Part shown: one piece after another, positions 42,001 to 45,000 of the stretch | How the letters are laid out: every line of letters begins with the position of its first letter | How positions within the stretch are numbered: the stretch's first letter is position 1 | Assembly: GCF_057098645.1 (NCBI RefSeq) | Contig: NZ_CM169472.1 | Reading direction: 5' to 3' (one strand) | Length of the DNA: 64,000 nt | Made by a program: the position numbers

Positions 42001-45000
42001 CAGGTGGATGTGATGGTTTGTTCCTGACCGCCGCCAGTACCGGTGGAACTAAAGACGCTCGCCAGTTTTCCGTATAGTGCGCCGGAAGCCCACAGGCCGC
42101 CCGTCTGGTCGAGGAAGGTACGCATTTGACCGGACATGTTGCCAAAGCGGGTAGGTGTACCAAAAATAATGGCGTCGTAATCGGCCAGTTCTTGCGGGGT
42201 TGCAACCGGTGCAGTTTGCGTTTTACCGCCTGCTTTTTCAAATAATTGCGGCGGCATGGTTTCCGGTACACGCTTAACGACAACTTCAGCGCCACCCACT
42301 TTGCTTGCACCCTCAGCGACTGCGCGTGCCATCGTTTCAATATGTCCGTACATGGAATAATAAAGCACCAGAACTTTAGCCATTTCTAACCACTCCTCGT
42401 GTTATCTCTATTCCGTAGCGATTCGCTACCACTTATTTAAAGATAAGACGTCCTTTTCAGAGTGCAAATTTCACAACCACTTATTTGATTTATAACAACT
42501 TTCACAAGCACGCAATTTTGTCGCAAAATGACACATTTTTATCTCATCGCGTTTTTATAATCATAAGAGCGGCTTATGGATAATTATTGGAGATGATATC
42601 TATTCTCGCTAAGAAGCTGTTGCAGGATATTACCAAACGCGGGTCTGCCCGCGTCAGTTCACTAAGCTTAGTCCCACGTAGCGAAAATATGGCAGCCGCC
42701 ATACGCCGCGTTAATTCTATGCAATATGATGTCTATACCCAGACGGAGGTCAGTAATGGCAAACCATCGAGGCGGTTCCGGCAATTTTGCAGAAGACCGC
42801 GAAAGAGCATCAGAAGCAGGTAAAAAAGGTGGACAGCACAGCGGGGGTAATTTCAAGAATGACCCGCAGCGCGCATCTGAAGCAGGTAAAAAAGGTGGCA
42901 AGAGCAGTCACGGCAAAAGCGACAACTAGCCGGGCTAATCAATGACGAATGCATTTTTTTCTTAAGCTCGTCAAAAAGTCATCACCGCCGGTAATCCCGG
43001 CGGTTTTCTGTTTATGGCTCCTGATGAACAACTTCTGGCGGTGGAACGTCAACCAACCTTCTGCTTAATAACGCATTGAGTAAAATCGCGCCAAAGGTTG
43101 CTGTACCGATCCCTCCCAACGTAAAACCGCCCAGCGTGAGAGCAAAATCACCCGCGCCCAGCACTAAGGTTACTGCGACCATAATCAAATTACCGTTCTG
43201 GCTTAAATCGACACGGTTTTGTACCCAGATCCGTGCGCCTGCGACGGCAATCAGCCCGAACACTACAATTGATGCACCACCAATCACCGCGGCCGGAATG
43301 GTATGAATCAGCGCGCCAAATTTCGGTGAAAAGCCCAACAGCATGGCGATGACGGCAGCAGCGACAAACACCAGCGTCGAGTAGACTTTTGTCACGGCCA
43401 TTACACCGATATTCTCGGCGTAGGTGGTTACGCCGCTGCCACCGACAGAACCAGAAAGCATCGTCGCCAGCCCATCACCGACGAATGCCCGTCCCATATA
43501 CGGATCCATATTGCGTCCGGTCATCCCGGCGACCGCCTTGAGACGGCCTAAGTTTTCCGCCACCAGAATCACCGCCACGGGCGCAATCAGCATCATTGCC
43601 TGACTATTAAAAGCAGGAGTGGAAAAATGCGGCAGACCGAACCAGGCAGCATGGCTGACGAGAGTAAAATCGACGGCTTTTCCCAGCCCTAAAACGTTGG
43701 TCATCACGACATACAGCAGACAGGCGACAATTAATCCTACAAGAATCAATAACCGCTGGATCATGCCACGGGTAAACACCGCCACCAGCCCAATACACAG
43801 CACCGTCATTACCGCCATCCAGCTATCAAAGCCTGAAGCCGATACACTTTTTACCGCGATAGGCGCTAAGTTCAGGCCAATCGCCATCACCACCGCACCC
43901 GTCACCACCGGCGGCATTAGCCGTTCAATCCAGCGCGTACCGATTTTCATCACCACCAGACCAATGACGGTATAAACCAGCCCACAGGCGATAATCCCGC
44001 CCAGCGCGATGCTGATATTTGGGTTCATGCCCTGACCGTTAAAGCCCGTTGCGGCGATCACCACGCCGACAAAAGCCGCGCTGGAGCCGAGATAACTGGG
44101 GACGCGCCCGCCGGTAATAAAGAAAAACAGTAACGTGCCGATCCCCGACATCAAAATGGAAAGATTGGGATCCAGCCCCATCAGAATCGGCATTAACACC
44201 GTCGCGCCAAACATCGCCACCGCGTGTTGAACGCCCATTATTGCCGTCTGAGCAAACAGCAATCGTTCATCCGGCGCGACCACGCCGCTCTCTGTAGAGG
44301 TCGATTTTAACTGCCAGTGAGGAAGACCGAACATTGCCATCAGCTGTCTCCTTAAGGAGGTTAACAAGCAGGGCGCATCAGCGCGTGATAACTGCGATCG
44401 AACCACACCAGCCCGTAAGGGGTGGCGTGACGATGAATCGCTTCGATGGCGCAAAACAAAATGTCGTGGGTGCCGACGCTCACCACCTGGCTGATACGGC
44501 AGTCAAACGAAACCAGCGCCTCTTCCAGTTGCGGGCATCCGGTCACACCAGTCTGCCAGCGGGCGGCGGCAAAGCGGTGTTCCATGGGCGTTTTGCCGCC
44601 AAAAAGGTTTGAAAGCGGCTCCTGCCCGGCGCTAAGTGTATTTACACACAGCGTTCGATTTTCATTGAATACCGGCCAGACGGACGCCCCACGACTCAGG
44701 CACACCAGTAATGTGGGAGGCGTGTCGGTCACGCTGCAGACGGCGCTGGCGGTGAACCCGGCGCGCCCGGCTGGACCGTCCGTGGTGATGATATTGACCG
44801 CCGCGCCCATGCAGGACATCGCATCGCGAAAAGTTTGTTGATCGACAATGTTCATAGTTTGCTCCTTACAACAGCCCGCAGGCTTCTTCAAAGGACAGAC
44901 GTGGCAGGCGCGCAAAAAGTTTGCTGCTATCGCCATAGCCGATATTAATCAGCAGATTGCTCTTCAGCGTGCTGCCTGCAAAAAAAGCGTCGTCTACGTG

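What the first reader, a model, noticed from the sequence alone, without database searches (positions are those of the whole stretch)
42756..42929. ymdF encodes tandem KGG-motif repeats
The 57-aa product is built from repeated ...ASEAGKKGG...GNFKNDPQR... units, characteristic of small general-stress KGG-repeat proteins. It sits immediately after an intact wrbA.
Basis: seen in the sequence. Interest (0 to 1): 0.12.

Follow-up and report, generated by a model that had tools for sequence, protein, structure and literature searches.

The report
ymdF, a known KGG-repeat stress protein

Summary
The observation and the interpretation both hold. Window 42756..42929 (+) is a 57-codon ORF with a GGAGG ribosome-binding site. 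Its product contains two tandem 22-residue units (residues 9-30 and 31-52), each ending in an exact ASEAGKKGG. It matches Pfam PF10685 (KGG) at 67 bits, against a cutoff of 20.4.

The locus is present in 5417 of 5426 complete E. coli genomes and is annotated "ymdF: general stress protein". The agp-yccJ-wrbA-ymdF order is conserved in the genera checked. The protein is 91% identical to its paralogue YciG over the 43 N-terminal residues that BLASTP aligned. Published top-down mass spectrometry (5748.73 Da, Met removed) agrees with my computed mass to -0.6 ppm, which confirms the start codon.

One correction to the finding: wrbA is intact, but it lies on the opposite strand and is divergently transcribed across 372 bp.

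Additions made here:
- An inferred sigma-S promoter (-10 TAAGCT at 42663-68, start near 42675) and an 81-nt leader.
- A terminator shared with rutG.
- Strong purifying selection on the coding sequence.
- A low-confidence AlphaFold model showing only one short helix per repeat.

Published work reports RpoS dependence, intrinsic disorder, and phenotypes in biofilm formation, drug tolerance and acid growth. The biochemical mechanism is unknown. I favour a disordered hydrophilin-type protectant or binder. Novelty: already known. Interest: low.

The parts
42756..42929 (+). ymdF coding sequence (57 codons plus stop)
   Evidence: ORF and translation. Pfam KGG at 67 bits. Annotated ymdF in RefSeq O145 and K-12. 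Intact-protein mass of 5748.73 Da with Met removed (PMC5594050) equals the computed 5748.7335 Da. Synonymous changes far outnumber non-synonymous ones between orthologues and against yciG.
42780..42845 (+). KGG repeat unit 1 (residues 9-30, GNFAEDRERASEAGKKGGQHSG)
   Evidence: DNA direct repeat D1. Protein self-identity at offset 22. First of the two Pfam KGG stretches. The AF2 model places a helix at residues 11-24.
42846..42911 (+). KGG repeat unit 2 (residues 31-52, GNFKNDPQRASEAGKKGGKSSH)
   Evidence: DNA direct repeat D1. Best Pfam stretch, residues 32-52 against profile positions 1-22 of 22. The AF2 model places a helix at residues 37-46.
42745..42749 (+). Shine-Dalgarno sequence GGAGG, 6 nt before the ATG
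   Evidence: Read from the sequence. Invariant in six enterobacterial genera.
42660..42675 (+). Inferred sigma-S-type promoter core: -13 C at 42662, -10 hexamer TAAGCT at 42663-68, inferred transcription start near 42675
   Evidence: The block CACTAAGCTTA is conserved in six genera with at most one substitution. It is homologous to the Salmonella ymdF (STM14_1275) promoter sequence, -39 to +1, listed among sigma-S-activated promoters in Fig. S7 of PMC5437024. The start site was not measured in E. coli here.
42675..42755 (+). Inferred 81-nt 5' UTR. It contains a 5'-terminal hairpin (42676-42711) and a conserved box ATGCAATATGATGTCTA (42719-35) that pairs with the SD in the predicted fold.
   Evidence: The MFE folds of all six genera begin with a hairpin within the first 3 nt. 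Its interior varies, and Citrobacter shows one apparent compensatory change. The box-SD pairing appears. There is no covariation for that pairing and the z-scores are only -0.8 to -1.8, so the structure is a hypothesis.
42618..42633 (+). Nearly invariant upstream block TGTTGCAGGATATTAC (about -57 to -42 from the inferred start); candidate regulator-binding site
   Evidence: Six-genus alignment. The binding factor was not identified. The literature lists ymdF as a CsgD target (PMC10002515) and an OmpR target (PMC6262077).
42984..43014 (.). Bidirectional intrinsic terminator (8-bp, 7 G-C stem ACCGCCGG/CCGGCGGT plus T-run) shared by ymdF (+) and rutG (-)
   Evidence: The terminator scan found it on both strands. 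It is the dominant hairpin in the RNA fold of the 3' region. rutG ends at 43012 on the minus strand.
41787..42383 (-). wrbA (neighbour, divergently transcribed; not part of the ymdF transcription unit)
   Evidence: 198-aa ORF. Annotated wrbA, NAD(P)H:quinone oxidoreductase. By homology to the Salmonella STM14_1271 promoter 40-mer, its own sigma-S promoter places the start near 42433 on the minus strand.

Best explanation
This is ymdF, a real and expressed small gene of E. coli.

Shown here or in the cited literature:
- It encodes a 57-residue protein that weighs 5.75 kDa after Met removal. The protein is basic (pI about 9.9), glycine-rich (21%) and very hydrophilic (GRAVY -1.71).
- The protein consists of a short N-terminal HRGG segment, two tandem 22-residue KGG repeats (Pfam PF10685) and a variable G/K/S tail.
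- It is the paralogue of YciG.
- The protein is made in E. coli, and in Salmonella its mRNA and protein depend strongly on RpoS.

Inferred from sequence homology:
- It is transcribed as a monocistronic RNA of about 340 nt. Transcription starts at a sigma-S-type promoter (-10 TAAGCT at 42663-68, start near 42675) and ends at a hairpin terminator shared with the convergent rutG.

Most likely mechanism (inferred, not shown):
- YmdF is an intrinsically disordered 'hydrophilin' that accumulates in stationary phase, biofilm and acid or osmotic stress.
- Each repeat forms at most a nascent charged helix. Through these helices the protein binds transiently to cellular macromolecules and stabilises or modulates them.
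- It is partly redundant with YciG.
- The near-invariance of the repeat core across genera suggests a specific conserved partner rather than purely bulk water-replacement. That partner is unknown.
For: Identity:
- ORF, SD and translation.
- Pfam KGG at 67 bits against a 20.4 cutoff, in 2 stretches.
- Present in 5417 of 5426 complete E. coli genomes and annotated ymdF.
- yccJ-wrbA-ymdF synteny in Salmonella, Klebsiella, Citrobacter, Enterobacter and Pluralibacter.
- 91% identity to YciG over the 43 aligned N-terminal residues.

The product is a protein in this frame:
- Codon differences are synonymous far more often than non-synonymous: 18 vs 2 for E. coli against Klebsiella, and 22 vs 4 for ymdF against yciG.
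- The antisense ORF carries stop codons in the relatives.
- The intact mass of 5748.73 Da with Met removed (PMC5594050) matches the computed 5748.7335 Da.

Disorder and hydrophilin character:
- Only 3 residues belong to the ILVMFWYC set. Gly is 21% and GRAVY is -1.71. The protein falls on the disordered side of the charge-hydropathy boundary (0.31 against 0.44).
- The AF2 model has pLDDT 65 and pTM 0.27, with one short helix per repeat and no tertiary fold.
- No PDB relative was found.
- PMC7161692 cites Oguri et al. 2019 as confirming experimentally that the Salmonella orthologues are unstructured in solution.

Regulation:
- The promoter block is homologous to the published Salmonella sigma-S promoter sequence.
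- In a Salmonella rpoS mutant, ymdF mRNA falls by log2 6.8 and protein by log2 5.2.
- qRT-PCR shows dependence on rpoS in S. Enteritidis.

Phenotypes:
- An E. coli ymdF deletion forms thin biofilms and is about 100-fold more sensitive to H2O2. It is also more sensitive to tobramycin and ciprofloxacin. ymdF cross-complements a P. aeruginosa PA2146 deletion (PMC9262955).
- In Salmonella, the yciG ymdF double and the triple mutants grow modestly worse at pH 4.5, while single mutants do not (bioRxiv 10.64898/2026.04.09.717482).
Against: - The biochemical mechanism has not been demonstrated for any KGG protein. [quoted passage not shown]
- Phenotypes are inconsistent between studies. Motility effects seen in S. 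Typhimurium were absent in S. Enteritidis. Overexpression in UPEC lowered persisters with ampicillin and gentamicin but raised them with levofloxacin. PA2146 could not be linked to the classical stresses tested.
- The very strong sequence conservation is atypical of a non-specific molecular shield.
- The E. coli transcription start is inferred by homology, not measured.
- NCBIfam has no model that names this protein.
Confidence: 0.85

Rival explanations
1. YmdF is not a general protectant but a specific regulatory adaptor. Its conserved repeats bind one defined partner in a signalling pathway (biofilm and c-di-GMP control, flagellar synthesis or catalase activity) and change that partner's abundance or activity.
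For: - The 43-residue core is nearly invariant across genera and between paralogues, which is unusual for disordered shields.
- E. coli ymdF restores biofilm architecture, tobramycin tolerance and BrlR production in P. aeruginosa PA2146 and sagS deletion mutants.
- The Salmonella paralogues are reported to affect flagellum-dependent motility redundantly.
- KGG genes sit next to catalase genes in several species: yciGFE-katN, and PA2146 next to katE.
Against: - None of the papers I read names a binding partner.
- Motility effects are strain-dependent.
- Complementation used multi-copy expression, which would also suit a dose-dependent protectant.
Confidence: 0.3
2. YmdF is a miniature nucleotide-binding protein that acts through a Walker A (P-loop) motif following the KGG motif, as the Pfam family text implies.
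For: E. coli YmdF matches the PROSITE pattern [AG]-x4-G-K-[ST] at A43-S50 (AGKKGGKS). By eye it also matches at G48-S55 (GKSSHGKS). YciG matches at GGNKSGKS. The KGG family description quoted in PMC9262955 mentions a Walker motif.
Against: - The C-terminal tail that carries the second match is not conserved: Salmonella ends GGKSSNRNS and Klebsiella GGKNSHGSRES.
- The first match is simply the KGG motif followed by K-S in a G/K/S-rich sequence.
- A P-loop needs a strand-loop-helix context inside a folded domain. The AF2 model has no strand and no tertiary fold.
- No P-loop family was hit in Pfam at E <= 1.
Confidence: 0.03
3. The functional product is the RNA (a stress-induced small RNA of about 340 nt) and the ORF is incidental, or the gene lies on the other strand.
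For: - The transcript is short and monocistronic, with a conserved 5' UTR.
- A 77-codon antisense ORF (42668..42901) shares third-codon positions with ymdF.
- A weak Rfam sroD match overlaps the terminator.
Against: - The substitution pattern shows selection on the sense-frame protein.
- The antisense frame has stop codons in Salmonella, Klebsiella and yciG.
- The intact protein is detected by mass spectrometry in E. coli and Salmonella.
- The sroD hit scores 21 bits against a gathering score of 50, with E = 0.15.
Confidence: 0.02

Closest known systems
E. coli K-12 YmdF (b4518, NP_415525.2; UniProt P56614)
   Same: The protein sequence is identical. The CDS differs by a single synonymous base. 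The upstream neighbours are the same (agp, yccJ, wrbA), as is the downstream rutG.
   Different: K-12 carries a 174-bp REP/BIME-like insertion inside the ymdF-rutG terminator hairpin, which the window lacks. The gap from the ymdF stop to the rutG stop is 256 bp in K-12 and 82 bp here. The window is 100% identical over 628 bp to O145:H28 strains.
YciG (b1259), the E. coli paralogue in the yciGFE operon
   Same: The two are 91% identical over residues 1-43 and share the two-repeat KGG architecture, size and hydrophilin character. Both are reported to be RpoS-dependent.
   Different: Homology stops at the CDS boundaries, so the promoters and UTRs are unrelated. The C-terminal tails differ (KSSHGKSDN against QQSGGNKSGKS). 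yciG heads an operon with yciF and yciE, whereas ymdF is monocistronic.
P. aeruginosa PA2146 and K. pneumoniae YmdF1-3
   Same: They belong to the same KGG small-protein family and are strongly induced in biofilms. Mutants show thin biofilms and increased drug susceptibility. E. coli ymdF and PA2146 complement each other's deletions (PMC9262955).
   Different: They act in different genomic and regulatory contexts (SagS/BrlR in Pseudomonas). I did not analyse their sequences here.
Hydrophilins and LEA-type proteins (Garay-Arroyo et al. 2000 criteria)
   Same: Both hydrophilin criteria are met: Gly above 6% (21% here) and mean hydrophilicity above 1 (GRAVY -1.71). The protein is predicted disordered with nascent helices and is stress-induced. 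PMC5437024 classes the paralogue YciG as a hydrophilin.
   Different: There is no sequence homology to plant LEA Pfam families, since only KGG was hit. At 57 residues it is much smaller. Desiccation protection by YmdF itself has not been reported in the papers I could read.
Neurospora con-10 and other multi-repeat KGG proteins
   Same: They share the KGG repeat. [quoted passage not shown]
   Different: They differ in repeat number and in regulators. The GsiB comparison is from memory and was not tested here.

Membership tests
Pfam PF10685 (KGG repeat; stress-induced bacterial acidophilic repeat motif) | Sequence matches the family profile above the curated gathering score | tested here: met
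   67 bits against a cutoff of 20.4, E = 1.6e-18, two stretches; the best covers residues 32-52 against profile positions 1-22 of 22.
Pfam PF10685 (KGG repeat) | Repeated K-G-G motif within a small hydrophilic protein | tested here: met
   ASEAGKKGG occurs twice exactly, with a 22-residue period. No shuffle out of 100,000 reached the observed self-identity. 103 of the 120 closest database homologues carry two KGG motifs.
Pfam PF10685 (KGG repeat) | Expression induced by general stress (RpoS in enterobacteria) | not testable with these tools
   The evidence is indirect. The promoter block CACTAAGCTTA (42660-70) is homologous to the Salmonella ymdF promoter listed among sigma-S-activated promoters. 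Published data show RpoS dependence in Salmonella, and E. coli data are cited.
YmdF orthologue group (E. coli b4518) | Sequence identity to annotated YmdF and conserved position next to wrbA-yccJ | tested here: met
   Annotated ymdF (WP_001273658.1) at the 100%-identical locus in O145 strains. The protein is identical to that of K-12. yccJ-wrbA-ymdF synteny holds in the five other genera checked.
Hydrophilins (Garay-Arroyo et al. 2000) | Glycine content above 6% and mean hydrophilicity index above 1 | tested here: met
   Gly is 21.1% and GRAVY is -1.71. The criteria are as paraphrased in PMC5437024 and from my own knowledge.
Intrinsically disordered proteins | No stable tertiary fold | tested here: inconclusive
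   Prediction only. The protein falls on the disordered side of the charge-hydropathy plot. The AF2 model has pLDDT 65 and pTM 0.27, with two isolated helices. PMC7161692 cites experimental confirmation for the Salmonella orthologues (Oguri 2019), but that paper could not be opened.
P-loop NTPases (Walker A) | Conserved GxxxxGK[ST] loop between a beta-strand and a helix in a folded domain | tested here: not met
   The minimal pattern matches. However, the tail is not conserved in orthologues, the model has no strand or fold, and there is no P-loop Pfam hit.
LEA protein families (Pfam LEA_1 to LEA_6 and similar) | Profile match to an LEA family | tested here: not met
   At E <= 1, Pfam returned only KGG and a sub-threshold DUF6291 hit. 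The resemblance is functional and compositional, not homology.

The most novel reading that the evidence does not exclude
The KGG repeat may be a sequence-specific, fold-on-binding module rather than a generic hydrophilic shield. It would recognise a target conserved from Escherichia to Pseudomonas. This would explain the near-invariant 43-residue core and the cross-genus complementation. In addition, ymdF output may be gated after transcription by its conserved leader. The leader has a 5'-terminal stabilising hairpin, and a conserved box (42719-35) pairs with and occludes the Shine-Dalgarno sequence until some stress signal or factor opens it.
Probability: 0.2. Interest if true: 0.35.

Novelty: already known. 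Interest (0 to 1): 0.07.

Why it matters
As a genome-scan finding it matters little. The gene, its family, its RpoS dependence and its disorder are all in the databases and the literature.

The family does have some wider relevance. KGG proteins are among the most strongly induced genes in biofilms and stationary phase. They influence biofilm architecture and antibiotic and peroxide tolerance in E. coli, Klebsiella and Pseudomonas. Their biochemical mechanism is still unknown.

The small additions made here give concrete handles for anyone studying that mechanism:
- The inferred promoter and start site in E. coli.
- The conserved leader elements.
- The demonstration that the 'Walker motif' distinction between YciG and YmdF is a composition artefact.
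- The strength of purifying selection on a disordered protein.

Tried and rejected
- NCBIfam: no family matched.
- PDB sequence search: no relative at E <= 1.
- Rfam over 42300-43100: only a sub-threshold sroD match on the terminator, 21 bits against a gathering score of 50. I treat it as chance.
- Sigma-70 consensus scan: one weak site at 42501-42529, no more than shuffles give. It is not supported by conservation as the ymdF promoter.
- My first promoter guesses were TCTATACC at 42732-39 and TATGAT at 42725-30. I abandoned them when the six-genus alignment and the published Salmonella promoter sequence (-39 to +1) placed the -10 at 42663-68. Both guesses lie inside the 5' UTR.
- The alternative 67-codon start (ATG at 42726) is rejected by the measured intact mass.
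- The overlapping 78-codon + strand ORF (42587..42823) and the 74-codon gene call in the Salmonella intergenic region are not conserved as ORFs.
- The antisense 77-codon ORF is rejected because the relatives carry stop codons in it.
- No structure-library search was run, because the AF2 model is of low confidence.
- Oguri et al. 2019 (PMC6304668), the primary paper on disorder and motility, is not held in the library. It is cited only through papers that quote it.
- The consensus fold of the leader gave a weak energy (-6.4 kcal/mol) and no covariation for the anti-SD pairing.
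Full report
**Observation**

Window 42756..42929 on the + strand is an ATG-initiated ORF of 57 codons plus a stop. It encodes MANHRGGSGNFAEDRERASEAGKKGGQHSGGNFKNDPQRASEAGKKGGKSSHGKSDN. 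A GGAGG Shine-Dalgarno sequence sits at 42745-49.

The product is built from two tandem 22-residue units, G9-G30 and G31-H52. Each begins with GNF and ends with an exact ASEAGKKGG followed by three variable residues. Self-identity at an offset of 22 is 17 of 35 positions. None of 100,000 composition-preserving shuffles reached this at any offset from 5 to 39 (maximum 16, mean 8.1).

At the DNA level the units form a 62-nt direct repeat of 71% identity, spaced 66 nt apart. The back-translated motif GCNGGNAARAARGGNGG occurs only at these two places in the 64-kb window, against 0 expected.

**Identity**

Pfam PF10685 (KGG) matches at 67 bits against a gathering score of 20.4, with E = 1.6e-18 and two stretches.

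The 628 bp from the wrbA start to the rutG end are found in 5417 of 5426 complete E. coli genomes. They are 100% identical to O145:H28 strains, where the ORF is annotated 'ymdF: general stress protein' (WP_001273658.1). In K-12 it is b4518, with an identical protein and a single synonymous difference in the CDS.

The neighbours are agp (+), yccJ (-), wrbA (-), then ymdF (+), then rutG and the rest of the rut operon (-). So wrbA is intact (198 codons) but divergently transcribed from ymdF across 372 bp. It comes 'immediately after' only in coordinate order.

Close homologues occur throughout the Enterobacteriaceae. The search returned 2113 database proteins at E <= 0.001, and the best 120 all carry PF10685. 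The yccJ-wrbA-ymdF arrangement is kept in Salmonella, Klebsiella, Citrobacter, Enterobacter and Pluralibacter, while the downstream neighbour varies. The E. coli paralogue YciG is 91% identical over the 43 N-terminal residues that BLASTP aligned, and homology stops at the CDS boundaries.

**It is a protein, in this frame, from this start**

Most codon differences are synonymous: 18 against 2 for E. coli versus Klebsiella, 10 against 2 versus Salmonella, and 22 against 4 for ymdF versus yciG.

A 77-codon antisense ORF (42668..42901) shares wobble positions with ymdF, so codon position alone cannot exclude it. However, it is broken by stop codons in Salmonella, Klebsiella and yciG.

Top-down mass spectrometry of E. 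coli BL21 colonies reported intact YmdF at 5748.73 Da with the initiator Met removed (PMC5594050). The monoisotopic mass I computed for residues 2-57 is 5748.7335 Da, a difference of -0.6 ppm. The alternative 67-codon start would give 7093 Da.

YmdF-specific peptides were also identified in Salmonella (PMC5437024). The protein appears in a stationary-phase E. coli proteome table (PMC6904343).

**Transcription unit**

My first promoter guesses lay close to the SD and were wrong. A six-genus alignment shows that the best-conserved non-coding blocks lie further upstream. They are CACTAAGCTTA (42660-70) and TGTTGCAGGATATTAC (42618-33).

Supplementary Fig. S7 of PMC5437024 lists the Salmonella ymdF (STM14_1275) promoter, -39 to +1, among sigma-S-activated promoters. 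The sequence is TAAGCGGCCTACTACGACGTTTTTCACTATGCTTAATGTT. This is the homologue of the E. coli block.

By homology, the E. coli features are as follows:
- -13 C at 42662
- -10 hexamer TAAGCT at 42663-68
- transcription start near 42675
- leader of 81 nt

The C at -13 and the CTAnnCTTA shape fit the sigma-S -10 consensus as I know it. The start has not been measured in E. coli here.

Downstream, an 8-bp stem with 7 G-C pairs (42984-43004) is followed by T-runs on both strands. It serves as a bidirectional terminator for ymdF and the convergent rutG. The predicted mRNA is about 340 nt and monocistronic.

In a Salmonella rpoS mutant, ymdF mRNA falls by log2 6.8 and protein by log2 5.2. Other reports list ymdF as a target of CsgD (PMC10002515) and of OmpR (PMC6262077). 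The factor that binds the invariant block at -57 to -42 is unassigned.

**Leader RNA (side observation)**

In all six genera the minimum-free-energy fold of the leader begins with a hairpin within the first three nucleotides. The stem is ACGCGG/CCGCGU-like and the interior varies. Citrobacter has ACGCAG/CUGCGU, an apparent compensatory change.

The conserved box ATGCAATATGATGTCTA (42719-35) pairs with the SD region in the E. coli and Klebsiella folds: UGAU 42727-30 with GUCA 42749-52, and UCU 42732-34 with GGA 42745-47. These pairs never vary, the consensus energy is weak, and single-sequence z-scores are only -0.8 to -1.8. This is a hypothesis, not a result.

**What the protein is like**

The composition is as follows:
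- 21% Gly
- 11 K+R against 7 D+E
- 3 His
- pI 9.9
- GRAVY -1.71
- only M1, F11 and F33 from the ILVMFWYC set

It satisfies both hydrophilin criteria. It also lies on the disordered side of the charge-hydropathy boundary, at 0.31 against 0.44.

AlphaFold2 with a 12-sequence alignment gives pLDDT 65 and pTM 0.27. The model has one short helix per repeat (residues 11-24 and 37-46) and no tertiary structure. No solved structure is related. [quoted passage not shown] 2019. I could not open that paper.

**How it most likely works**

These points are shown:
- It is a real, RpoS-class, stationary-phase and biofilm-induced small protein.
- An E. coli ymdF deletion forms thin, patchy biofilms with about 10-fold fewer cells.
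- That deletion loses about 100-fold more viability to H2O2, and is also more sensitive to tobramycin and ciprofloxacin.
- E. coli ymdF and P. aeruginosa PA2146 complement each other's deletions (PMC9262955).
- In Salmonella, only the yciG ymdF double and the triple mutants grow worse at pH 4.5, which indicates redundancy.

This part is inferred. The protein acts as a disordered hydrophilin whose repeats form nascent charged helices. These helices bind and stabilise or modulate other macromolecules under stress.

The degree of conservation argues that the interaction is sequence-specific rather than a bulk effect. Thirty-two positions are invariant among 12 sequences that include the paralogue. 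I therefore keep a 'specific adaptor' rival at substantial weight.

Phenotypes in the literature are not fully consistent. Motility effects depend on strain. Overexpression has opposite effects on persisters with different antibiotics. No partner or activity is reported in any paper I read.

**The Walker-motif claim**

The Pfam family text, as quoted in PMC9262955, mentions a Walker motif. That paper says YciG has one and YmdF does not.

In fact E. coli YmdF matches the PROSITE pattern [AG]-x4-G-K-[ST] at A43-S50 and, by eye, at G48-S55. The tail is not conserved among orthologues. The model has no strand-loop-helix. No P-loop family is hit. I regard these matches as an artefact of G/K/S-rich composition.

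**Comparison with the known, and verdict**

Every defining feature of PF10685 and of the YmdF orthologue group that could be tested was met. Stress induction could only be supported indirectly.

The locus differs from K-12 only by lacking a 174-bp REP/BIME-like insertion in the terminator. The finding is a correct reading of an already known gene. Novelty: already known. Interest: about 0.07.

The most novel reading still open has two parts, with a combined probability of roughly 0.2. One is a specific conserved binding partner. The other is post-transcriptional gating through the leader. Either would be of moderate interest to specialists in stress and biofilm biology.

Noticed in passing
window 42984-43004, compared with L002 (K-12 NC_000913.3) 2310-2500: K-12 MG1655 carries a 174-bp insertion with REP/BIME-like palindromes (GCCTGATGCGCGATGCTTATCAGGCCTAC ... 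GTAGGCCGGATAAGGCGTTTACGCCGCATCCGGCA) inside the ymdF/rutG terminator hairpin. A duplicated CACCGCCGGTAAYCCCGG flanks it. The window, which matches O145:H28 strains, has the uninterrupted hairpin.
   Followed up: partly
window 42882-42920 (YmdF residues 43-55): E. coli YmdF matches the minimal Walker A/P-loop pattern [AG]x4GK[ST] twice (AGKKGGKS and GKSSHGKS), although PMC9262955 says only YciG has such a motif. The tail is not conserved in Salmonella or Klebsiella orthologues, so this is probably a composition artefact.
   Followed up: yes
window 42676-42711: A predicted 5'-terminal hairpin lies at the start of the inferred ymdF mRNA. An equivalent hairpin opens the MFE fold in all six genera despite a variable interior. 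Citrobacter shows an apparent compensatory change (ACGCAG/CUGCGU against ACGCGG/CCGCGU). It may be an mRNA-stabilising element.
   Followed up: partly
window 42719-42752: The conserved leader box ATGCAATATGATGTCTA is kept in 5 of 6 genera and is partly deleted in Pluralibacter. It is partly complementary to the SD region and sequesters GGAGG in the predicted fold. In the four other genera that keep it, the box reads as a mini-ORF (ATG CAA or CAC, TAT GAT, GTC or GCC, TAA) with no SD of its own. There is no covariation to test either idea.
   Followed up: partly
window 42618-42633: The block TGTTGCAGGATATTAC lies about 42-57 bp upstream of the inferred ymdF start and is nearly invariant in six genera. 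It is presumably a regulator-binding site. By eye it resembles an RcsB-type box, but the binding factor is unassigned.
   Followed up: no
window 42415-42540 (minus-strand features of wrbA): Blocks conserved in E. coli, Salmonella and Klebsiella (TTTAAAGATAAG at 42436-47, AGAGTGCAAATTTCA at 42459-73) correspond to the published Salmonella sigma-S promoter of the wrbA-yccJ operon (STM14_1271 40-mer). This places the E. coli wrbA start near 42433 on the minus strand. A perfect 15-bp palindrome, GTAGCGATTCGCTAC (42415-29), lies in the wrbA leader. Further conserved blocks at 42484-98 and 42523-40 lie between the two divergent promoters.
   Followed up: partly
window 42668-42901 (-) and 42587-42823 (+): Two longer mechanical ORFs overlap ymdF. 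One is a 77-codon antisense ORF with its own mirrored repeat (PPFLPASDA) that shares wobble positions with ymdF. The other is a 78-codon TTG-started + strand ORF. Neither is conserved as an ORF in relatives.
   Followed up: yes
L004 2750-2974 (Salmonella contig AAGQTB010000018.1): The source gene caller placed a 74-residue gene without Pfam hits in the Salmonella wrbA-ymdF intergenic region. It covers the promoter and leader of ymdF, and E. coli has no ORF counterpart, so it is probably a spurious call.
   Followed up: partly
window 42935-43009: A sub-threshold Rfam match to sroD (RF00370; 21 bits against a gathering score of 50; E = 0.15) spans the ymdF 3' UTR and terminator. It is most likely chance similarity between terminator-containing RNAs.
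   Followed up: no
loci L004, L006, L008-L010, downstream of ymdF: The gene downstream of ymdF varies between genera. It is rutG in E. coli, an EamA transporter in Klebsiella (where rutG follows), Citrobacter and Enterobacter, and a TetR-family gene in Salmonella and Pluralibacter. The upstream yccJ-wrbA pair is constant.
   Followed up: no
PLSDB plasmid collection: KGG-protein genes similar to ymdF occur on 171 plasmid records, 105 of them in Pantoea. Several of the 100%-identical E. coli 'plasmid' hits are records of 1.3-4.9 Mb, which look like chromosomal sequence filed as plasmids.
   Followed up: no
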